A stretch of DNA of 64,000 nt from Octopus vulgaris (lineage: Eukaryota), in the NCBI GenBank assembly GCA_951406725.2, contig OX597814.1:165540001-165604000 (forward strand), given 5' to 3'. Positions 1 through 62,091 of this stretch are shown here, one piece after another. The notes below the pieces were generated by a model. That model was not told the origin of the DNA, did no database searches, and worked only from the letters and a program-made list of their open reading frames with translations. The position numbers and the translations under genes were made by a program. Position 1 is the first letter of the stretch; each line of letters starts with the position of its first letter.

Positions 1-998
1 TGTATTTTATGTGGCACCAGCACAAGTGTATTTTATGTGGCACCAGCACTTGCAAGACAAAGATGGGTGAGGGAGTGGGGGAATGGCCATAATGGACATA
101 CCTGCTTAGCTTGACATGTCTTCTTAAGTGCAGCAAATCCTCAGAAGTCCTGGTCCCTTGTAATCTCTGTGAAGCCCAGCATCTGAATATCCAGAAAGTA
201 ATTTTTTTTTTATTACAGTTGGTTGTGTGACTTTTTTCTGGATCCAGTATAAAGTAACTGCAACATTGTCTCAGTTGTAGCATTAGTATTCCATTGTGGG
301 TCTTACCTGGGCTTTGTAGAGGATCTATAACTGATGTATTTCTTGGCTCTGATGTGAAGGTCAGTCTTTGGGATGCAGTCCTAAATATGTTAGGGATCTG
401 TACTTGCAACAAGAGATATGCAGTATTACTGTGACCTAGCATTGGGGATGATTGCAAGGTTTCTAGTTGCATGCTGCTTCAATGTTCTTCACTTCTTTCA
501 CTTGTAACAACAAAGCTCTAATCTATGTACATATAAGTGTGAGTTTGAGGAAGAAGATGAAACTCTTTAAACAAAGAGAAGAGTTGGCATCATTTTCCAC
601 TAAGCTGTGTATTCAGCCTGGCTGTGAATTGAAACAAAAAAGCTAAAAGAAAAAAACAAAAAACAAAAAAAAAAAAATGGCAAAGTTAGTGGCAGATGGT
701 GATTAAAGTCATGGTGTTACTGACATGGATGATTATTAATATCAATATTCAAAAGCTTCTAAATGTTCTGGCTGATTTATTAAGTGAAATCAGATTCCAA
801 ATGACTCCACCCGAATAATTAATTTATGATAGTAATTTATCATTATTATTATAATAGTTGTTGTAACATGCATGTTTCAAAGCTGCTGTGGGTTGCAGTT
901 AAGTTAATGTTAGCATTACATATTTATACTCATTAATTAACCAGTTGTTCTCAAATTCATAAATCTTCCTCTATAAATTTGCAACCATTCTACATATA

Positions 999-1553
999 CA
1001 GGGTGGACCAAAATGATCTGACACATTTAGAGGCTTAATAAAAGCACAAAATAAGAAATAGTGAAAAGAAAAATTTTATTTTCTGAATGTACATATAATG
1101 CCATTTTATTTCATTAAGTTTTAAAAATTAAATCAGCTAAATGCTTCCCATCATTGTCAACACACTGTTGGAGACGTTCATGGAAGTTATCGATAACTCT
1201 ATGGATCATTTCTTCTGGAATGGTTGCTATTTCTACACAAATTGCACATTTTAATTCATCAACAGATCGAGGGTGATGACTGAATACTTTTGATTTTAAA
1301 TATCCCCGCAAGAAAAAATCACATTTCACCATTCCAGAAGAAATGATCCATAGAGTTATCGATAACTTTCATGAACGTCTCCAACAGTGTGTTGACAATG
1401 ATGGGAAGCATTTAGCTGATTTAATTTTTAAAACTTAAAGAAATAAACTGGCATTATATGTACATTCAGAAAATAAAATTTTTCTTTTCATTATTTCTTA
1501 TTTTGTGCTTTTATTAAGCCTCCAAATGTGTCAGATCATTTTGGTCCACCCTG
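999..1553. mobile_element. Fold-back non-autonomous Tc1/mariner element (226-bp inverted arms, TA TSD)
   Basis: TA|CAGGGTGGACC...GGTCCACCCTG|TA; arms 999-1224 and 1328-1553; minus ORF 1114-1332 is a mariner-type transposase C-terminus (CDFFLRGYLKSKV..ELK). Confidence 0.88.
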
Positions 1554-24995: not shown

Positions 24996-25901
24996 GTAAG
25001 GTGATTTTTCATCACTCTTTTTAATTTCTTTTTTACTTGTCTCAATTTTTAAGATAATTTTTATTATTTCTTTTTCTTTAAGTTTTCTTTAACACATGTA
25101 TACACAAATGTATTTATATACATTCACATGTTTCTTGTATTTGTTTGTGCTGTAAATATTTTAAAATCTCTTCCTCCTCCTTTTCTGCTCATATTCAATA
25201 GAAGGGCATAAAGTTTCTATATTTGTACCTGAGAAAGACTATGATACTGTTTCAATTTGAAATATATACACATATACACTGGCACACAAACACATTATAT
25301 AAATACACACACATACTCCAATGAGCATTTCATCAGTGCTACTTATCTTGTTGAGTCATCAAAGACCATTGATAACTTAGTATTGAAATGACTGAAAGAC
25401 ACCAACAAGATATAAAGATTATCACACATGATATGTCAGCAAGCAACATTTATTTAAAAACACTCACACATATAATGTATGATTGTGTTAATGTCCTCTT
25501 TTTCATTTTCAGATGGGTCAGATAATTTTGTCATGCAGAAAATTGCCTTATTTTAATCATGTCTCTCCCAACCTACCTACACAAACCACCCACCTTCCTA
25601 CCTGCAACTTGCCCTTCTATCTCACAGCCTACTGTCACTCATTAGTCTTTCACCCATTGTCCATACCTCCTTCTATGCCCCTATTGTTCATCTTTCAATC
25701 ACTTCCTTCACTGTACTGTACTCTAGATCTCATCTGACCACCAAATATATTTCTTCTAGTGTAACTAAGGATGCTATCATAACTATCAGCTCATATCCAC
25801 TATTCATTGGGGGATGGACAAACAGGGAAAAGTGTAAAAGAACATTGCCAATTACATTAATAAATTATTTGAGTATCACTGCATTTGTATAATACAATCT
25901 A

Positions 25902-27005
25902 CAGGGGTTGGACAAAATAATGGAAACACCTTAAAATTTCAAAAAAATTTATTTTGATATGGAGTAGAACCACCTTTGCAGTAATTACAGCTTGAATTCT
26001 ATGATGTATAGAGTCGCAGAAAGTTTGAATTGTTTCCAAAGGAATTTTTGTCCATTCTTCAGCTAAAACAGTCTCCAGTTTTTGTAGTGATGATGTTGGA
26101 GGAAATCGACTTCTTACATGTTTTTCTAAAATGCACCATAAATGTTCAATAATATTGAGATCTGGGGACTGTGGTGGCCAGATAAGATGTTCAACTTCAC
26201 TACAATGTTCCTCATGCCATTCAGTAACAACTTTAGCTGTGTGAATTGGTGCATTATCATCCTGAAAGATTGCATTTCCCTTCAGAAACAGTTCCACAAG
26301 CATAGGATGAATTTGATCAGATACAATGCTTAAATAGTCTTGACTATTAATTCTGCCAGGAAGGGAAACCAGTGGGCTGGCAGATTTCCAAGATATAGCA
26401 CCCCCCCCCCAGATCATCACAGGTCCTCCATGTTTAACAGTTGGAAGAAGGCAGTCTGGGTCAAATGCTTCTTTTGGCTGTGTCCACACATATACATGGC
26501 CGGTGGTTGGAAATAAGGTAAAGGATGACTCATCCAAGAAAATAACATTCTTCCACTGCTCTAGGGACCAATTCTATTGGTTTTTACTCCACTCTAAATG
26601 CTTTGCAACGTTTGTTTTAGAAAGTAATGGTTTTCTGGTTGCAGCTCTCCTATGAAATCCAGCTTAGTGCAGCTCCCAGTGAACAGTTTTGTGGAAACTG
26701 GGTTCTCGAGGTGGTCATTAAGCTCTGCAGTAATTTTGGGAGGTGTACTTTTGTGATCCTTTCTAACAATTTGCATAAGAGTCCAACGGTCCCTATCTGA
26801 AAGTTTTGGTTTCCTTCTGGAGTTTTGTTTCGACGAGGAGGTTTTTCCTTCTTTCTCAAAGGCTGTCATTACTTTCAAGACAGTACTTCTTGATATACCA
26901 AACATTTCAGCTGTTTTTGTTACACTAGGGCCTGCCATACAAACAATTTAATAGATATTTCAAAATTATGATGCTAGGTGTTTCCATTATTTTGTCCAAC
27001 CCATG
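25902..27005 (-). mobile_element. Tc1-like DNA transposon, frameshifted transposase
   Basis: TA|CAGGGGTTGGACAAAATAATGGAAACACC TIR pair; ORFs 26594-26938 (HTH) and 25899-26537 (DES, QDDNAPIH, SPDLNIIE). Confidence 0.92.
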
Positions 27006-51999: not shown

Positions 52000-53625
52000 A
52001 TATTACAACCGAATAAAGAAAATTTGGACCTCATAACTCTCTGCATTCAATAAAACAGTGGCCCACAATGTGTTTGCAGTGCCAGTACTCATACCAACAT
52101 TTGGGCTGCTTGATTGGACGTTTGATGAGATCCCAGTCATTGATGTGAAAACCAGGAAGATACTAATAAGCACACATAATTTCCACATAAACAGTAACGT
52201 AGAACCGCCTCTACCTAAAACGAAAACAAGGCGGCAGAGGCTTAACCTCGATCCAAAATGCCTTTGCATGTCGCGTCATATCCCTTCGGCAACATCTTTT
52301 AACCACCAAGTGTCAAAGTGCATCCCTTGACCAAGTTTGCATGCATGAGGCTGATAATTTCATAAGACTTGGAAGGCAGCTCCTTGAGCAACACTCTTTG
52401 TCTGATAACTTAGAATACATGCCCAAAGAAGTCACACGACTCCACCGCAACCTATCATCACATGAAAAGATGAGCCCATATGAGCAGAAGACTATGCATG
52501 GATATATTGGTAGAAAGCTCCGTAATGATAGTAACATCGATCATCAAAGCGGTTTATCATGGACGAATAGCCGGATTACTACCTCCCACATTGAAGGGTA
52601 TGCGTTTGCAATTCAAGAACAGGAAATATCAGCCAAGTACCTGATGCATAAAATGGATAGAGGTGCAAGAAAAGCCGTAAAATGTGACAACTGATTCAGA
52701 CTTTGTGGAGCTCACACTGAAGAATGTCACCCACATCATAAGCAGTTACCCGAAAATGTCATTAATGGTATTATCTACCAATGAAACATGACGTTGTAGC
52801 TAGGATACTCTATAATGAAATCCGTCGGGAGGATAATCCCAAGGACAAAGAAATAAGAACCCACAATATGGTAGAAGCCATAGCCACTCATAATGGTGAC
52901 ATGTACCAGCGAAAAACCTCAAAAAAAATGTAAGCACAATAAATCTCTCTGTATATAAACGGCAGTTTGTCTGTCTGCGTGTCTGTGTGTCTGTTAGGTT
53001 GTACCCTCACCCTGACCACGGCTTTCAACCGATTCTGATGAAACTTGACACACACATAGCCCAATGTCATAATTCAAAACTAACGCAGCGAAAATTTTGA
53101 AAGTTCCCCCAGTTCTGAAAAAAATTGATAAATTCGACATGGGGTCAAGAATCAGAAACACAAACCAGACTGTCTAGGGGACGCAACTCGACCTTTTTAA
53201 CTCTCAAAAAATTTACCATCATTTTTTTCCCATTTTTTTGCTATTTTTTGGCTATAACTCTCTAAAAATGCTTTATAGTTATTTCCCTTACAAATCTGAG
53301 CAACGCCGGGCGATACTGCTAGTCTGATATAATGATTTGGGATAGAGAAGAGAAACTGTGCACAGTTGTGGAAATTAGCTGCCCATAAAGCTGTAGATCA
53401 GTGAAAAAGAGAACACCTATGCTGAACTATTAAGAAATCTGCAGTTATTCTATTCAGATTACAAGTTCAGGTTTATACCTGTAATTATTGGAGCCCTGGG
53501 ATACGTAACACACTGCCTAATACAAATCTCAAAACCAGAAAGTAGAAAGCTAATTCGAAGACTACAGATCCAATCCATCACTGGGACTGTAAAAATCTGT
53601 AAGACTTTCTAAAAGTTTATCATTC
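52000..53625 (+). mobile_element. Decayed R4/Dong-like RLE LINE, split by a Helitron
   Basis: AHNVFAVPVL, KTMHG, EGYAFAIQEQ, HNK|SDIMIWD..VVEISCP and IPVIIGALG motifs with frameshifts. Confidence 0.8.
52944..53322 (+). mobile_element. Non-autonomous Helitron
   Basis: A|TC 5' end, (GTCT)n near the 5' end, 3' imperfect hairpin ctgagcaacgccggg, CTAG|T end, no TSD. Confidence 0.82.
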
Positions 53626-55437: not shown

Positions 55438-55685
55438 TTGGGGAGGGGACATACTTGTGTCAGAATCCCAGTATAGTAATAATTTATTTTGCCAGATATA
55501 AGACCAGTTTCTTCATGAAAATTGAAAAACTATCGTCAGTTGAATCAACTCCAGTATCTTTGAGGTACTATTGTTTACTAACACTTCATCCATGAGATGG
55601 AGAATGAATTCGATCTTGAACACAAAACCTACAAGCATTAAATAATGCCATAAGGTAACAATTGTCTAAGTGCTGAACTGTTTCT

Positions 55686-56284
55686 TATTTCTTTATTGCC
55701 CACAAGGGGCTAAACATAGAGGGGACAAACAAGGAGAGACACAGGGATTAAGTCGATTACATCGACCCCAGTGCGTAACTGGTACTTAATTTATCGAGCC
55801 CGAAAGGATGAAAGGCAAAGTCGACCTCGGCGGAATTTGAACTCAGAACATAGCGGCCGACGAAATACCTATTTCTTTACTACCCACAAGGGGCTAAATA
55901 CAGAGAGGACAAACAAGGACAGACAAACGGATTAAGTCGATTATATCGATCCCAGTGCGTAACTGGTACTTATTTAATCGACCCCGAAAGGATGAAAGGT
56001 AAAGTCGACCTCGGTGGAATTTGAACTCGGAACGTAACGGCAGACGAAATACCTATTTCTTTACTACCCATAAGAGGCTAAACACAGAGAGGACAAACAA
56101 GAACAGACAGACGGATTAAATCGATTATATCGACCCCAGTGCGTAACTGGTACTTATTTAATCGACCCCGAAAGGATGAAAGGTAAAGTCGACCTCGGTG
56201 GAATTTGAACTCAGAACGTAACGGCAGACGAAATACGGCCTCGCATTTCGCCCGGCGCGCTAACGTTTCTGTCAGCTCGCTGCC
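55686..56284 (-). mobile_element. Deu/Nin-domain SINE head-to-tail trimer (one full head plus two 184-bp headless units)
   Basis: Junctions GAAATACC|TATTTC at 55869/55870 and 56053/56054; possible TSD AACTGTTTCT. Confidence 0.88.
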
Positions 56285-56324
56285 TTAATTGTTTAACTGT
56301 TTCTGTCACACTGAATGTAACAAC

Positions 56325-56599
56325 TGTGGTTGATGAAAGGAGCACAACGGAAACAAGGAAATAGGAAACAGAAGTGCAATAAGGTCTTACCTGACAGGGG
56401 ATGAAGTCGGATGGCCTTCAGCCAACTTGCTCGCGTGTTGTCGTCTCGGTGCCTTGCTGGGGTCTGCCGCAGCCGGTCGATGCCGCACGTGCGTTGAGTC
56501 ACTCGCTTCCGCTTCCGCCGGCGCATGCGCCCTGCAAGACCTGTAAGCATCACTTCCGCTCCCGCCCGTCCCGTCACACTCCTTCATCACCACACCACA
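56325..56599 (-). repeat. 3' LTR (275 bp)
   Basis: Identical to 60249-60523 except for one C/T substitution. Confidence 0.96.
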
Positions 56600-56635
56600 C
56601 GCCCCCCTGATCTATAAATCACTGAGCCGGCTTCC

Positions 56636-59494
56636 TCACTCGCTCCCGCACCCGAAACTGGTTTCATAATCAGCCAGCCAGGGAGGAGGGTGCCGCTCCC
56701 TCTGTGGTCGCAGCGCGACCCTAGGACTTGTTTCTGGTGTGTTGCTGTCGACCTCGTCATCCTGTCGGTTGTTTTCGTCCTGCCCACTGTTGCTTGTCCC
56801 ATCCTCTGGGGCATCGATGGAGATGTTATTCTTCGAATTTACGGAGGTTATTGTCCCTTTTCCCCATTGCGATGTACACCGTGCGTTTGGGGGTTTTACC
56901 CAGACTTCCTCCCCGACCCGCACGAAGGCGTGCTCTTCCTCTGCCCCGGGTTGCATTGATTTAGTACACGGATGCCTCCACTCGTACCTGAATATTGCTC
57001 TGTGTGGCACCGATTCCTCAGCCTGTCCGGATCGGGGAGACAAGTTGTACCAAAAAACTGCTTCAAGCGGCGAAATGTGCCCTCTTTCCGCTATGGCCTT
57101 GACTGTCCGATGGTGCCTCTCCACGATCCCGTTACCGCCCGGCCTATACGCTGCTCTGAACAAGCGTCGCACGTTCCACCGATCAAGCATAACCCTCAAT
57201 GCTTCCGAACGAAATGCCGCCCCGTTGTCCATCAGTAGTTCTTCCACGGGACCTCTCTCTAAAAATATCCCGTTCAGGATCTGCACGATCTCGTCAGCAT
57301 TGCCCGATCTCAACTCCCTCCAAATGGCCAGCCGGCCCGGCCCACAGTCGACCATGGAGAGGTACGTTCGCTGACGGTAGTGTGTCACATCCACAGCTAG
57401 CCTTTTCCAGTTCTGCTCCACGGAAAGGCTTCCCTGTTCATGCCCACACGGAGCAGGGTCGATGGACTGACACCTGTCGCAGCTCCCGACCACCTTCCGG
57501 ACGCTTCTCCTGGTCACGTCAGCATCAATCTTTTTTGCCAGATACAGGGTCCTGTCCACACCCAGGTGATGCATAGCGTGCAATTTCTTCAGCTCGGAGT
57601 CATCCAACCGACACGCCGCAGCTATCCCTCTCCGCGCCTCCTCCGGTTCTTCCAACCACGCCCTTTTCACCCTGGTCAGTACGTCCGCCTTGTTTTTCTC
57701 CGAAGGCACGAAGACCACGTTCAGCTTCAGTCCGAATTCGGCGATCAGTTCACCTAGAACTCCTAGACGGCGCTTCACTAACATCTCCGCAGCACCTTTC
57801 GTCCGCACTCTCCTGTCACCGGTGATCACTGATCCTACCCAGCCAAGCACAGTGGCCGAATCCGTCCGCATTTCAATCGTGCGCAGCCCCCATTTCAAGG
57901 CCAAGTTCACCCCTTTCAGCAGCGCGTCTAGTTCGGCGACATTGATGTGGTTGAAATCATCTGCTTTCCGAAGCCAGGCCGCGTCCTCCACCGCAGTGCC
58001 TTCGATTGCCAACACCACCCCTATCGCTATACTGCTAGCATCACACCAGACAGTCCCGCATTTCGTCCTGGGCACGTACCAGTTCCCCCTGGCCGGGTCT
58101 TCCGCTCTTGTCCTCTCTAGGATCTCCTGCATCATCGCCACCGTCCCTTCTCCCACCTTGTCGCCCCACCTCTCTCCTTCTGCTCGTCTCTTGGTGTAAC
58201 TACACGCCGTGCGCAGCCATCCAGCGATCGGGTAGTGACCGACCAACTTCCCACACACCGAGAACAGCTCTCTCCTGCTGACGCTGGAACTCAGCTCTGG
58301 GATTTCATTTCCTCTCCGGAACACCAATTCACCTGATCTATCTCTTCGCAGCTTCAGCCCCAGCGCGGCTCCCCCTTCAATCGACTCCGGCGGCTTAGCA
58401 ATCAGTCCGAACTTCTCCAGATGTCTCACTACCTCGTCGGCTGCCACTACAGTTTCGTCCACCAAAATGTCGTCAATGTAGGAGCTGGTGGCCTTTCTAA
58501 TCTTGCCGTCTTTCCCTAGGACGGACCTAAGCACTGCCGACATGATCTTCGGAGCAGAATTCAGCCCGAAACCCAGCCTGGTTAGACAGTACGTCCGGCC
58601 CTTGTACCGCACCAGCTGATATCGCCATAGTTTGTCTCTCACATGGAGCTGCAAGTATGCCGATCTCAAGTCGACAATCGTCGCTGCCTCAGTCGACTGT
58701 CTCCACTTGCGTAATGCCTCACCACAAACGTCTGTCGCCTCACCTCCCGTGTGACACGATATGTGCTGGTTTAACTCCCTGAAGTCCAGCACCGGTCTGA
58801 CTTTTCCCTTCGTAGGCTGCACCACCGCCATCAGGGGTAGCACTCCGCCCGCTACCTCCTCCTTCCAAGGGACAAGGATCCCTTCCTCGATCCACCTCTC
58901 CACCTCGTCTTCAAACTCAACCCTGGCGTGGCCTTTCAGAGTATGCTGGTAACAGCTCACCCTGTTCTCCAGTGTCGGGGGCTCGTCCTTCCATTTCCAC
59001 TCTATCGTCCACCGCTGACCATCGAACGCCGCCTGAAAGTCCTTGTCCTCGATGGTGTAAGCGGCGCCGTCCCTCGCGGGGCTCTGTTCCCTCTGGTGAT
59101 CCTGACTCGCAGTGCACGACGCCCCCACGCTTCCGAACGTGACCTTATTTCCCACAACGCTGACGCCACCGAGGCAGTTGATGGCGTCCATCCCCATAAC
59201 CACATCAACTACAATTGCCTGTAGCCTTAGCGTCGCGCCGCGCACCACTATCTCTACCGTGCTGCTGCCTCTGCAACGGATTTCGCTGCCGTCGACCGCC
59301 CGGACACTACACACCCCGTTCCATTCCTTCGTCACCCTCGAAGTCACCAGGGTGGTCGTACAGCCCGTATCCACAAGGGCCTTGAACGTCTCCCCCTCGG
59401 CCTCCACGTCAATCACTGGCAGTGTCTCCAATAGCGCCTCTACTCGTTTGAGGGGAAAGTTCGAGAGGCAGCAACTTCCCCGCGGTCGTTTCCC
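56636..59494 (-). CDS. pol: pol polyprotein (protease, RT, RNase H, DDE integrase), expressed by -1 frameshift
   Basis: LVDTGC protease; DLRSAY, GFGLNSAP, YIDD RT; CDAS..AELD..TDS..NKAD RNase H; HHCC plus D..D(35)E integrase. Confidence 0.95.
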   Translation of the reverse strand, partial: GKRPRGSCCLSNFPLKRVEALLETLPVIDVEAEGETFKALVDTGCTTTLVTSRVTKEWNGVCSVRAVDGSEIRCRGSSTVEIVVRGATLRLQAIVVDVVMGMDAINCLGGVSVVGNKVTFGSVGASCTASQDHQREQSPARDGAAYTIEDKDFQAAFDGQRWTIEWKWKDEPPTLENRVSCYQHTLKGHARVEFEDEVERWIEEGILVPWKEEVAGGVLPLMAVVQPTKGKVRPVLDFRELNQHISCHTGGEATDVCGEALRKWRQSTEAATIVDLRSAYLQLHVRDKLWRYQLVRYKGRTYCLTRLGFGLNSAPKIMSAVLRSVLGKDGKIRKATSSYIDDILVDETVVAADEVVRHLEKFGLIAKPPESIEGGAALGLKLRRDRSGELVFRRGNEIPELSSSVSRRELFSVCGKLVGHYPIAGWLRTACSYTKRRAEGERWGDKVGEGTVAMMQEILERTRAEDPARGNWYVPRTKCGTVWCDASSIAIGVVLAIEGTAVEDAAWLRKADDFNHINVAELDALLKGVNLALKWGLRTIEMRTDSATVLGWVGSVITGDRRVRTKGAAEMLVKRRLGVLGELIAEFGLKLNVVFVPSEKNKADVLTRVKRAWLEEPEEARRGIAAACRLDDSELKKLHAMHHLGVDRTLYLAKKIDADVTRRSVRKVVGSCDRCQSIDPAPCGHEQGSLSVEQNWKRLAVDVTHYRQRTYLSMVDCGPGRLAIWRELRSGNADEIVQILNGIFLERGPVEELLMDNGAAFRSEALRVMLDRWNVRRLFRAAYRPGGNGIVERHHRTVKAIAERGHISPLEAVFWYNLSPRSGQAEESVPHRAIFRYEWRHPCTKSMQPGAEEEHAFVRVGEEVWVKPPNARCTSQWGKGTITSVNSKNNISIDAPEDGTSNSGQDENNRQDDEVDSNTPETSPRVALRPQRERHPPPWLADYETSFGCGSE

Positions 59495-60204
59495 TGGCCG
59501 CAATCACGGGCAATGTGCCCTGTCTGCCTGCATCGATAGCAAACTGGCCCCAGCTGCGTACAGTCCCGCGCCATGTGCGGTCCCTGGCATTTAAAACATC
59601 GTCCTGAGAACGGCCGCTCTCGTTGCACGGTGGGCTTCCGTACCTCTTTCTCGGGACGTCGTCCGTCTTTACGCGCCTCCGTCACCGCCATCGCTATCCC
59701 CTTCCGCCCCGAGTGTCTCGTCAACCCGCGAGCATGAGTTACAAGCTCGCTCAATGGCATCTTTTTGACCCCGGGCAGTTGTTGTAGGTGAATCCCTACA
59801 TCGTCGGGGAACCCATTTACGAATGCCAGTCGGGCTGCTCTCTCCAGTCCTTCTCCGGCAAACCCGGCCAGAGTCGCTAGCCTTCTAGCTTCCGCCGCAA
59901 AATCATCCACCTGGCCTCCCGCCCACCTGATTGCACCCAGCTTAGCGAAAGCTGTGTACTCGCATTCCGTGTATGCGTCACACAAGCGCCGCTCTATATT
60001 CCCATCGCAGAGCCGTTCTTTTTCGTCCATTTCTAGGTAAAGCGACAACGCACTTCCTTCCAAATACAGGGCCATAAGACTCGCCACGTCGCTTATGCCC
60101 TGCAGTCTCGCCACCAGCCTGATTTTCTGAATCCAGGCCACTACATCGCCTTCGCCGTTAAAAGGTCTGACGACGTCACTGGCGATCCTAATTTTTGCCG
60201 ACAT
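59440..60204 (-). CDS. gag: gag (254 aa from MSAKIRIA) with two zinc knuckles
   Basis: CFKCQGPHMARDC and CYRCRQTGHIARDC; first ATG after the LTR/PBS at 60204. Confidence 0.9.
   Translation of the reverse strand: MSAKIRIASDVVRPFNGEGDVVAWIQKIRLVARLQGISDVASLMALYLEGSALSLYLEMDEKERLCDGNIERRLCDAYTECEYTAFAKLGAIRWAGGQVDDFAAEARRLATLAGFAGEGLERAARLAFVNGFPDDVGIHLQQLPGVKKMPLSELVTHARGLTRHSGRKGIAMAVTEARKDGRRPEKEVRKPTVQRERPFSGRCFKCQGPHMARDCTQLGPVCYRCRQTGHIARDCGQGNDRGEVAASRTFPSNE
59488..59494 (-). promoter_or_regulatory. -1 ribosomal frameshift slippery site G_GGA_AAC
   Basis: X XXY YYZ in gag phase (CAG GGA AAC); the -1 frame is pol. Confidence 0.85.
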
Positions 60205-60236: not shown

Positions 60237-60248
60237 GCCGAAATAGCT
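60237..60248 (-). promoter_or_regulatory. Putative non-canonical primer-binding site complementary to tRNA-Phe nt 1-12
   Basis: Sense AGCTATTTCGGC abuts the 5' LTR; its complement GCCGAAATAGCT equals the conserved 5' end of metazoan tRNA-Phe(GAA). Confidence 0.65.
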
Positions 60249-60523: not shown

Positions 60524-61125
60524 ACAACGTCGAACAGGGAGTGAGGATTACTAAAACAAAAGGTGTCTGTTTCCTTTAAGCCATCATAAAAGACAGAAAT
60601 TTGAAGATCTCTGGAAATGTAACTTCAACAGTTTCTCAGGAGCCCGTTTATTTAAACGAAAGTTTAAATAAAGAAATGGCAACAGTAATAGTGATTTATC
60701 TTATTAGCTACTAGATTCAAAAGATTCAATAAAATACAAAGAACATTAAAGACAATGGGGTTTACAATATGTATGGACATGAACTAAGTCATTTTAAAAG
60801 CTAAACGTTGGGAGGGGTGAAGCCATAATATAATAGACGGATTAAAAATTTAATGGAACATGAAGTAAGTATAAAATAAACTGTTTCTGAGATAGGTTCA
60901 GGGATTGAAATTTGGCAGAAGGATTATCCGGTAAAAGAATGAAACTGAAAGTGACCTCGGCAGGGTTTGAACTCAGATCATAAAATGTTGGATGAAACGA
61001 CCACAAGGCATTCTCCCATCATACTAACGGTTCTGCAAATTCACTACCCTTAAATAAAAAATACATAATATATAAATACACAATAATTAGAATGATTTGA
61101 AACTGAAAACCATGTAAAACATATA

Positions 61126-61360
61126 TATTTCTTTACTACCCACAAGGAGCTAAACACAGAGGGGACAAAGAAGGATAGACAAAGGGATTAAGTCGATTAC
61201 ATCGACCTCAGTGCGTAACTGGTACTTAGTTTATAGACCCCGAAAGGATGAAAGGCAAAGTCGACCTCGGCGGAATTTGAACCCAGAACACTTAACGGCA
61301 GACGAAATACGGCTACGCATTTCGCCCGGCGTGCTAACGTTTCTGCCAGCTCGCCGCCCT
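61126..61360 (-). mobile_element. Young full-length Deu/Nin-domain SINE
   Basis: 18-bp TSD AACCATGTAAAACATATA (61108-61125 and 61361-61378); older copies at ~63060-63260, 63620-63730, 63790-63950. Confidence 0.88.
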
Positions 61361-62091
61361 AACCATGTAAAACATATAGGGCTAGCTGCCCGCACACGGG
61401 TGGGAACTTATGGATTAGGCTGGACTGGAGCTCCCCACAATTCTACCCTAGTCCTTGTACAGAGTTCTGTTGCATCCCAAAATACCGGGTTATGAATATC
61501 CTATTGAATTCGGCTGCTTTTTGTTTCATGCTTTCCTAATTCCACAGTAAGCACTTTATTAATATTCTGCCTTTTACACGTTTATAATTTTTGTCTTTAA
61601 AAGGCTCTTCCAAAACTATTTCGCCTATAAGCTCGTATGACGATGTAATAAATGTACCCAGTACCTCTTCGCTACCAGTCACAATACTGTGAATTCCACG
61701 ATGCTTTAATGGGAAGGTGGAACCTCCACACTTTTTCATCATTTTTTGCATCTTATATTTTCAGCGAGGGTTTGAAATCCTTGGTCTTTTTGCATCCCCT
61801 CATGTTGCTCACAAGACGATAGGATGGTGCTGCTGGTTGCTACGGTCGGGGAACAGGGTATCCGATAACATGTTTTCAAAACTGTATACAGGATAACCTC
61901 CTCCAGCATTTCTGGAGTTGTGACTGAAAGTACCTTCGAAACTATGGTGGGGGTCTGCTGATCTTGTTGCTATCCCAGTTGTTCTCCACTACTTTCCTCT
62001 CTTCTCCGCTTTCTTGTATTTTTTTTTATTTCTTCAGAGCAAAACGTCCTCAAGGCGTTTTTACCACCATATCTATAACAATTAGTCCTTT

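What the first reader, a model, noticed from the sequence alone, without database searches (positions are those of the whole stretch)
60237..60248. Primer-binding site complementary to the 5' END of tRNA-Phe: possible priming by a 5' tRNA fragment
Seen: directly after the 5' LTR the sense strand reads AGCTATTTCGGC with no TGG, and no complement of it was seen in the LTR (so not Tf1-type self-priming). Established: metazoan tRNA-Phe(GAA) begins GCCGAAATAGCTCAG, giving a 12/12 match to nt 1-12 that extends beyond the acceptor stem. Normal PBSs pair with the tRNA 3'-CCA end; copia and Ty5 use tRNA-iMet cut in the anticodon arm. Inference: this apparently functional element primes minus-strand synthesis from a short 5' tRF or a tRNA-Phe cleaved in the D arm, perhaps by its unusual RNase H. 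I know of no described precedent but cannot search the literature.
Basis: partly seen in the sequence, partly recalled or inferred. Interest (0 to 1): 0.85.

Follow-up and report, generated by a model that had tools for sequence, protein, structure and literature searches.

The report
Retrotransposon primed by tRNA's 5' end
A widespread invertebrate lineage of LTR retrotransposons carries, right after its left terminal repeat, 12 bases complementary to the first 12 bases of a tRNA rather than to its tail, so it likely starts copying itself from a 12-base tRNA piece, probably cut by its own RNase H, which would be a fourth kind of primer for these elements.

Summary
Confirmed and much wider than one copy. 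The 12-mer abuts the 5' LTR of a young 4.2-kb element and pairs 12/12 with nt 1-12 of the host's tRNA-Phe(GAA) genes. The LTR-plus-12-mer junction occurs 287 times in this genome (control 14) and persists in families with only 51-61% Gag identity. In 44 distant metagenome relatives, 41 carry a site in the same register: 11 exact, 22 changed only opposite tRNA nt 5-6 (the two commonest variants match real tRNA-Phe genes), 3 other Phe-like variants, and 5 switched to the 5' ends of tRNA-Lys or elongator tRNA-Met. No other tRNA-Phe window, no TGG site and no self-primer fit. Priming itself is inferred, not shown: likely a 12-nt 5' tRNA fragment, probably cut by the element's RNase H, whose predicted fold is closest to archaeal RNase HI. 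Host-by-host covariation could not be tested. Ten literature searches and five look-ups in this scan found no earlier description; Repbase and subscription journals were not searchable.

The parts
60524..60528 (-). 5-bp target-site duplication, upstream copy
   Evidence: 5-bp duplications also in L065, L066, L067, L073
60249..60523 (-). 5' LTR, 275 bp, TG...CA
   Evidence: 99.6% identical to the 3' LTR
60237..60248 (-). 12-nt primer-binding site complementary to tRNA-Phe(GAA) nt 1-12, directly after the LTR's CA
59440..60204 (-). gag ORF, 254 aa, two CCHC zinc knuckles
59488..59494 (-). predicted -1 frameshift slippery heptamer followed by a hairpin (gag-pol junction)
   Evidence: in-phase heptamer in 53 of 66 zinc-knuckle contexts examined
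56636..59503 (-). pol frame, 955 codons: protease, RT (YIDD), DUF7047, RNase H, integrase
58106..58279 (-). DUF7047 (PF23088), helical region between RT palm and RNase H, marker of the lineage; likely the thumb
   Evidence: (E 7e-23)
57668..58066 (-). RNase H domain, D-E-D-D intact; predicted fold closest to archaeal RNase HI
56600..56622 (-). polypurine tract with a short hairpin just upstream and two bases before the LTR's TG
56325..56599 (-). 3' LTR
56320..56324 (-). 5-bp target-site duplication, downstream copy

Best explanation
This is the primer-binding site of an LTR retrotransposon lineage whose site is complementary to nucleotides 1-12 of a host tRNA (mostly Phe, sometimes Lys or elongator Met), and minus-strand DNA synthesis likely starts from a 12-nt 5' tRNA fragment that is probably released by the element's own RNase H. 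Shown: the site, its position against the LTR end, its conservation, its register and the tRNA switches. Inferred steps: (1) Gag nucleocapsid would anneal the site to the 5' strand of the acceptor and D stems, opening the tRNA; (2) the tRNA would be cut after nt 12, at the edge of the 12-bp RNA duplex, leaving a 3'-OH next to the LTR's terminal A, as Tf1 RNase H does to its own mRNA, but here in trans on a tRNA; (3) RT would extend from nt 12 into U5; (4) plus-strand synthesis may copy the fragment to its first base, which would explain why the match stops exactly at nt 1 and tracks tRNA variants.
For: Geometry: antiparallel pairing puts nt 12 against the LTR end, the orientation a primer needs; the CCA end lies at the far side. 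Own genome: 41 of 50 copies examined exact, 9 with 1-2 mismatches, across families at 51-100% Gag identity with unrelated flanks; host tRNA-Phe has one nt 5 type only and so do the junctions (287 against 3). Metagenome relatives (26-60% Gag identity where tblastn aligned): complement of tRNA-Phe nt 1-12 within 2 mismatches in 35 of 44; windows 2 and 3 overlap it (12, 11); the other 62 windows at most 3; the CCA window 0. Conservation falls to background at the base after nt 1 (0.19 bits; motif-anchored, so in-site values are inflated). Variants opposite nt 5-6: CG 10, TG 9, GG 3; real tRNA-Phe(GAA) genes with AA, CG and TG were found. Types recur on separate branches. Switches: L133 matches tRNA-Lys(CUU) nt 1-12, L100 and L129 match a host tRNA-Lys variant, L136 matches elongator tRNA-Met, all 12/12. 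L136 is the only one of 40 junctions with C after the LTR, and tRNA-Met is the one with G12, which argues that nt 12 is paired. RNase H: catalytic residues kept in 69, 70, 70 and 59 of 71; best fold matches are Halobacterium RNase H1 (Z 16.8, rmsd 2.1, 123 aligned) and S. tokodaii RNase HI (Z 14.4, rmsd 3.3, 125 aligned), against Ty3 RT Z 8.9 (rmsd 2.0, 91 aligned). Archaeal RNase HI can cut dsRNA and RNase H leaves a 3'-OH (passage of PMC5603734). Tf1 RNase H cleaves an RNA duplex to make its primer (title in the reference list of PMC4600332).
Against: No primer, cDNA end or cleavage was observed. Element site and tRNA gene could be paired in only one host. GG at nt 5-6 was not among the tRNA-Phe genes found. 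CG and TG types can interconvert by CpG decay or G-U wobble: L139 and L151 look like one family yet differ. Three of 44 relatives (L120, L148, L152) fit poorly at the nt 1-4 end. The RNase H has Ser (59 of 71) where archaeal-type enzymes have Arg (position assigned from recalled motif), and a shared fold shows no function. Two bases lie between the PPT G-run and the LTR's TG in this genome's families, which could mean 2-nt end processing and a shorter primer. Ty1 and Ty3 inherit their site rather than recopying the tRNA (passage of PMC7472051), so step 4 is not automatic. The Met switch is a single event.
Confidence: 0.62

Rival explanations
1. Same primer, different cutter: a host nuclease makes a short 5' tRNA fragment (D-loop cut) that is captured and trimmed to nt 12.
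For: Short 5' tRFs of about 14-16 nt are known (recalled); nothing here shows the RNase H cutting RNA:RNA; it lacks the archaeal-type Arg.
Against: nt 13-14 cannot pair with the LTR end, so exact trimming is still needed; the same register across three tRNA species suits a cut set by the duplex edge; many host tRNA nucleases leave a cyclic phosphate that RT cannot extend (recalled).
Confidence: 0.2
2. The primer is shorter (nt 1-10 or 1-11): the cut falls inside the duplex and the first one or two bases after CA are integrase-removed overhang.
For: Two bases separate the PPT G-run from TG in this genome's families, as in elements with 2-nt end processing.
Against: The base right after CA changes with the tRNA (L136); the PPT spacer differs among relatives.
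Confidence: 0.09
3. Intact tRNA binds the site only as a scaffold or packaging signal, and priming comes from its CCA end elsewhere, from another RNA, or from protein.
For: Ty1 and Ty3 use extra tRNA contacts outside the 3' end (recalled).
Against: The LTR end is set by the primer's 3' end and abuts nt 12; no site complementary to the CCA window in 44 of 44 upstream regions; no conserved extended pairing with U5 (mean z -0.11).
Confidence: 0.06
4. The motif is a conserved cis element (integrase or Gag site, or self-priming) that resembles tRNA ends by chance.
For: A 12-mer is short; one genome's copies share ancestry.
Against: Exact matches to the first 12 nt of Phe, Lys and Met tRNA genes, variation concentrated where tRNA-Phe genes vary, and no complement in the LTR.
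Confidence: 0.03

Closest known systems
Half-tRNA priming of Ty1/copia elements (Drosophila copia, yeast Ty5; plant Osser, Bryco, Bianca; fungal Helenus)
   Same: Primer is a 5' piece of a tRNA with a new 3' end; site lies at the LTR end.
   Different: Known cases pair with and end in the anticodon arm and were found only in Ty1/copia (passages of PMC6317226, and PMC10886601). Here the site pairs with nt 1-12 (acceptor and D stems) and pol has the PR-RT-RH-IN order.
Tf1/Sushi self-priming (Tf1, Tj1, Tcn1)
   Same: Short site beside the LTR; the primer is the 5' end of an RNA released by a cut beside an RNA duplex; RNase H needed. Closest working analogy.
   Different: The Tf1 primer is the element's own mRNA 5' end. 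Here the LTR holds no complement and the partner is a tRNA; no chromodomain was detected.
Canonical tRNA 3'-CCA priming (retroviruses, most Ty3/gypsy; tRNA-Phe in mouse IAP)
   Same: Host tRNA, including tRNA-Phe, Lys and Met, as primer source; lineage switches of tRNA.
   Different: No TGG; the opposite end of the tRNA is used; a cut is required.
Ty3/gypsy (Metaviridae) LTR retrotransposons
   Same: TG...CA LTRs, 5-bp duplication, PPT, gag with CCHC, predicted -1 frameshift, PR-RT-RH-IN order.
   Different: RT scores only about 18-22 bits against this genome's Gypsy RTs and RNase H scores nothing; RNase H hits RVT_3, not RT_RNaseH; carries DUF7047.
Retrotransposons with archaeal-type RNase H (plant Tat; oomycete Chronos, Archon)
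   Same: RNase H hits RVT_3 and folds closest to archaeal RNase HI.
   Different: Single RNase H, no active-site Arg, animal hosts; those reported from Repbase v20.08 were in plants and oomycetes (passage of PMC5348765).

Membership tests
LTR retrotransposon | Direct LTRs TG...CA, target duplication, PPT, gag and pol with PR, RT, RNase H, DDE integrase | tested here: met
Canonical tRNA-primed LTR elements | Site starts with TGG and pairs with the tRNA 3'-CCA end | tested here: not met
   CCA window 0 of 44 (tRNA-Phe; no TGG at any junction printed)
Half-tRNA-primed Ty1/copia | Site pairs with the anticodon arm | tested here: not met
   anticodon-arm windows of tRNA-Phe at most 3 of 44
Half-tRNA-primed Ty1/copia | Integrase upstream of RT | tested here: not met
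   integrase follows RNase H
Half-tRNA-primed Ty1/copia | Primer is a 3'-truncated tRNA | not testable with these tools
   inferred from geometry only
Tf1/Sushi self-priming | Site complementary to the 5' end of the element's own transcript in the LTR | tested here: not met
   no 6-nt complement in the LTR; 1 of 40 contigs with a 2-mismatch complement, 3 kb away
Tf1/Sushi self-priming | RNase H cleaves next to an RNA duplex to make the primer | not testable with these tools
   catalytic residues intact; activity untested
Ty3/gypsy | Domain order PR-RT-RH-IN | tested here: met
Ty3/gypsy | RT groups with Ty3/gypsy RTs | tested here: inconclusive
   weak scores to host Gypsy RTs, none to two degraded BEL copies; no reference set of DIRS, copia or named Gypsy clades was available for a rooted tree
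Ty3/gypsy | Gypsy-type RNase H (PF17917/PF17919) | tested here: not met
   absent from the Pfam columns of the 120 + 120 relatives listed; no profile hit to host Gypsy RNase H
Archaeal-type RNase H (aRNH) | D-E-D-D core with conserved Arg before the last Asp | tested here: not met
   D-E-D-D kept, Ser in 59 of 71 at the position; definition from PMC4408406 passages; position assigned from recalled motif
Archaeal-type RNase H (aRNH) | Fold closest to archaeal RNase HI | tested here: met
   on a model with mean pLDDT 91
Named mollusc/annelid clades (MolGy, PolGy, CsRN1, Mag) | RT/RNase H clusters with the clade's references | not testable with these tools
   reference sequences not in the readable supplements

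The most novel reading that the evidence does not exclude
An undescribed, deep-branching lineage of LTR retrotransposons, marked by DUF7047 and spread from cnidarians and nematodes to molluscs and arthropods, uses a fourth priming mode: its RNase H acts as a duplex-guided tRNA endonuclease that cuts host tRNA-Phe, Lys or Met after nt 12 and uses the 12-nt 5' piece as primer.
Probability: 0.5. Interest if true: 0.92.

Novelty: new variant of a known kind. Interest (0 to 1): 0.84.

Why it matters
LTR-element primers are classed as three kinds: whole tRNA, half tRNA cut in the anticodon stem, and self-primer (PMC6317226). A 12-nt 5' tRNA primer would be a fourth, linking half-tRNA priming and Tf1 self-priming, and it makes the open question of who cuts truncated tRNA primers testable with one small enzyme and two RNAs. 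Standard searches use only tRNA 3' ends (e.g. the method of PMC13524379), so this lineage would be scored as having no primer site. Such elements would also be exposed to 5' rather than 3' tRNA fragments in host control, and an RT-RNase H that cuts and extends an annealed RNA could be a useful tool.

Tried and rejected
Extended pairing of the tRNA D-loop with U5: suggested by one co-fold, not above shuffles over 39 junctions (mean z -0.11, 2 below -2). Self-priming: rejected. Viral contigs: no relative; the tRNA pattern there gave only Thr/Val genes. Fifteen assemblies that held tRNA-Phe variants were searched for the element to pair host and site: only weak integrase/RT hits. Expression: no RNA holder listed on record; contigs cannot map ends. 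ESM Atlas: nearest clusters unnamed or generic RT, uninformative. Whole-pol Foldseek: generic retroviral RT matches. The one own-genome junction of TG type is not an element (L200). Literature: searches found no report of this site or of DUF7047; the exact 12-mers occur only in unrelated papers by their listings. Mollusc and annelid clade surveys do not mention primer sites (five supplements searched, one scanned PDF unreadable). Levin 1996, Ohtani 2004 and one review were not held. This scan's notes: only unrelated half-tRNA copia and LTR-internal site findings.

Full report
Observation. On the - strand the window holds a 4,199-bp LTR element: LTRs at 60523-60249 and 56599-56325 (274 of 275 identical), a 5-bp target duplication, a PPT, a 254-aa gag with two zinc knuckles, and a 955-codon pol frame with protease, RT, DUF7047, RNase H and integrase. 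The 12-mer follows the LTR's CA with no spacer. The host genome (2.8 Gb; likely an octopus, inferred from the closest named relatives) has 94 matches to the tRNA-Phe 5' 15-mer against 0 for the control. All 18 loci checked, of 30 fetched, are tRNA-Phe(GAA) genes starting at the match. Pairing is nt 1-12 and stops at nt 13. In the window alone the motif is not rare (13 of 100 shuffles), so the case rests on conservation.

Own genome. The LTR-end-plus-12-mer junction occurs 287 times (control 14). I examined 50 copies: the 30 best Gag hits and 20 picked by hand from lower ranks. Of these, 41 are exact and 9 have 1-2 mismatches, in families from 51 to 100% Gag identity whose LTR ends and leaders are unrelated. 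Where both LTRs could be aligned to their ends, the site abuts the LTR. The host has no tRNA-Phe with another base at nt 5 (4 hits, control 2, none a tRNA). Only 3 junction-like matches of the C type exist: two single-base variants and one not an element. Contigs of three other public runs cross the junction.

Relatives. Pol has at least 654 relatives, and 1,084 clusters score E below 1e-30 against a profile (some may be outside the lineage). Named hosts include Octopus, Argonauta, Aplysia, Plakobranchus, five crustacean genera, Nymphon, Watersipora, Hydra and Trichuris. A metagenome scan gave 76 loci; 46 had a detectable gag start, and 44 of those had 40 nt or more upstream. Sliding all 65 12-nt windows of mature tRNA-Phe over these regions, the complement of nt 1-12 matched 35 of 44 within 2 mismatches, the two overlapping windows 12 and 11, all others at most 3, and the CCA window 0. 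By class: 11 exact; 22 differing only opposite nt 5-6 (CG 10, TG 9, GG 3); 3 other Phe-like variants; 4 Lys-type; 1 Met-type; 3 poor fits (L120, L148, L152). These are not fully independent (e.g. L096/L097, L093/L095). Conservation drops at the base after nt 1. In L098 both LTRs are present and the site again abuts the LTR.

Are the variants real tRNA ends? A scan of prokaryote assemblies for a eukaryote-like tRNA-Phe pattern gave 62 loci: 36 archaeal (all TG) and 26 others, probably eukaryotic contaminant contigs (inferred). ARAGORN calls tRNA-Phe(GAA) in 22 of those 26. Their 28 matches have AA 12, CG 8, TG 5, GA 2, CT 1 and GG 0 at nt 5-6. So the three commonest site types correspond to real tRNA-Phe 5' ends; GG was not found. 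The host's own tRNA-Lys(CUU), a tRNA-Lys variant and intron-containing elongator tRNA-Met begin with the exact complements of the L133, L100/L129 and L136 sites (the script slice for the Lys variant was off by one, and the match is read). L136 is the only one of 40 distinct junctions with C directly after the LTR, matching G12 of tRNA-Met. On a pol tree of 49 rows (39 loci dropped for no site or under 200 aligned residues) the types recur on separate branches: L098 (AA) is sister to L109 (CG), and L090 (GG) sits with AA-type families. Caveats: CG and TG can interconvert by CpG decay or G-U wobble (L139 and L151), and host-matched covariation was possible in one host only; 15 assemblies holding variant tRNAs had no element.

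Mechanism. Antiparallel pairing places nt 12 against the LTR's last base, where a primer's 3' end must be, while the CCA end lies at the far side. The 12-bp duplex is predicted at -18.7 kcal/mol. A cut after nt 12 is therefore needed (inference). All matched tRNAs have A at position 9, not G; G9 is often N1-methylated, which would block pairing (recalled). The RNase H keeps D-E-D-D. Its model (pLDDT 91) is closest to Halobacterium RNase H1 (Z 16.8) and S. tokodaii RNase HI (Z 14.4), well above Ty3 RT (Z 8.9). A review passage states that archaeal RNase HI can cleave dsRNA and that RNase H leaves a 3'-OH (PMC5603734; original not held). Tf1's RNase H is needed to cleave an RNA duplex for self-priming (reference title in PMC4600332; original not held). 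Against this, the Arg that defines archaeal-type RNase H (PMC4408406 passages) is Ser here, and fold is not function. I put priming by a short 5' tRNA fragment at about 0.9, and the specific version with a cut after nt 12 by the element's RNase H at about 0.62. Self-priming and extended U5 pairing were tested and rejected.

Comparison. Neumann et al. list three primer kinds and found half-tRNA primers only in Ty1/copia, cut in the anticodon stem (PMC6317226 passages); Kojima says the same (PMC10886601 passages). This element meets neither definition nor Tf1's, but likely works like a hybrid: a truncated tRNA made the way Tf1 makes its primer. Its gene order is Gypsy-like, but RT scores only about 18-22 bits to host Gypsy RTs, the RNase H does not match theirs, and two degraded BEL copies give nothing. 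Its placement is unresolved for lack of reference sequences.

Novelty. Ten searches of the open library (listings and abstract starts seen) found no description of this site or of DUF7047. Passages of two invertebrate clade surveys do not mention primer sites (PMC6238403, PMC8556966; five supplements of the first searched, one unreadable). A recent survey searched only tRNA 3' 12-mers (PMC13524379 passages). Repbase Reports, subscription journals and bioRxiv supplements could not be seen and may hold a prior note. Five look-ups in this scan's findings showed nothing on this lineage.

Verdict. A real, lineage-wide, non-canonical primer-binding site; a new variant of truncated-tRNA priming; interest 0.84.

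Noticed in passing
window 56600-56622 (-); L065, L066, L090, L098, L103, L107, L108, L126: A short hairpin directly upstream of the PPT G-run is kept in this genome's families and in 6 of 76 metagenome loci from distant families; it may help set the plus-strand primer.
   Followed up: partly
window 59488-59494 (-) and relatives: In-phase -1 slippery heptamer followed by a hairpin after the last zinc knuckle in 53 of 66 contexts; a different heptamer marks the branch holding most Lys-type sites.
   Followed up: partly
window 58106-58279 (-): DUF7047 (PF23088) marks this lineage: over the cut-off in all 150 listed own-genome hits (521 candidates) and in all 240 rows of relatives listed; no paper names it. 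Likely the RT thumb.
   Followed up: partly
L120, L148, L152: Three relatives whose site starts like the others but departs at the tRNA nt 1-4 end; decayed copies or other tRNAs.
   Followed up: no
L168, L189, L192 (G000 C2, C5, C8): Host elongator tRNA-Met genes carry a 21-22-nt intron with variable sequence.
   Followed up: no
G000:C18:30147732-30157146: Tandem array of over 40 tRNA-Phe 5'-end matches at a 200-bp period.
   Followed up: no
L198 (G000:C10:86275800-86276200): tRNA-Lys gene with a CTT anticodon but the 5' end recalled for tRNA-Lys(UUU).
   Followed up: partly
window 55680-56300, 61120-61371 and other copies: A dispersed ~240-bp SINE-like repeat with 9-13 copies in the window; three tandem copies end just beside the element's 3' LTR; very deep in public runs.
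   Followed up: no
window 25899-26573 (-): 224-aa frame resembling a Tc1/mariner DDE transposase fragment (by eye).
   Followed up: no
window 52203-52694 (+): 163-aa frame resembling a non-LTR retrotransposon fragment (by eye).
   Followed up: no
window 995-1224 and 1328-1557: 230-bp inverted repeat, 98% complementary, 103 nt apart; MITE-like.
   Followed up: no
L236-L287 (non-archaeal rows): Several bacterial MAGs hold eukaryote-type tRNA-Phe genes, some in tandem arrays: probable host contamination.
   Followed up: partly
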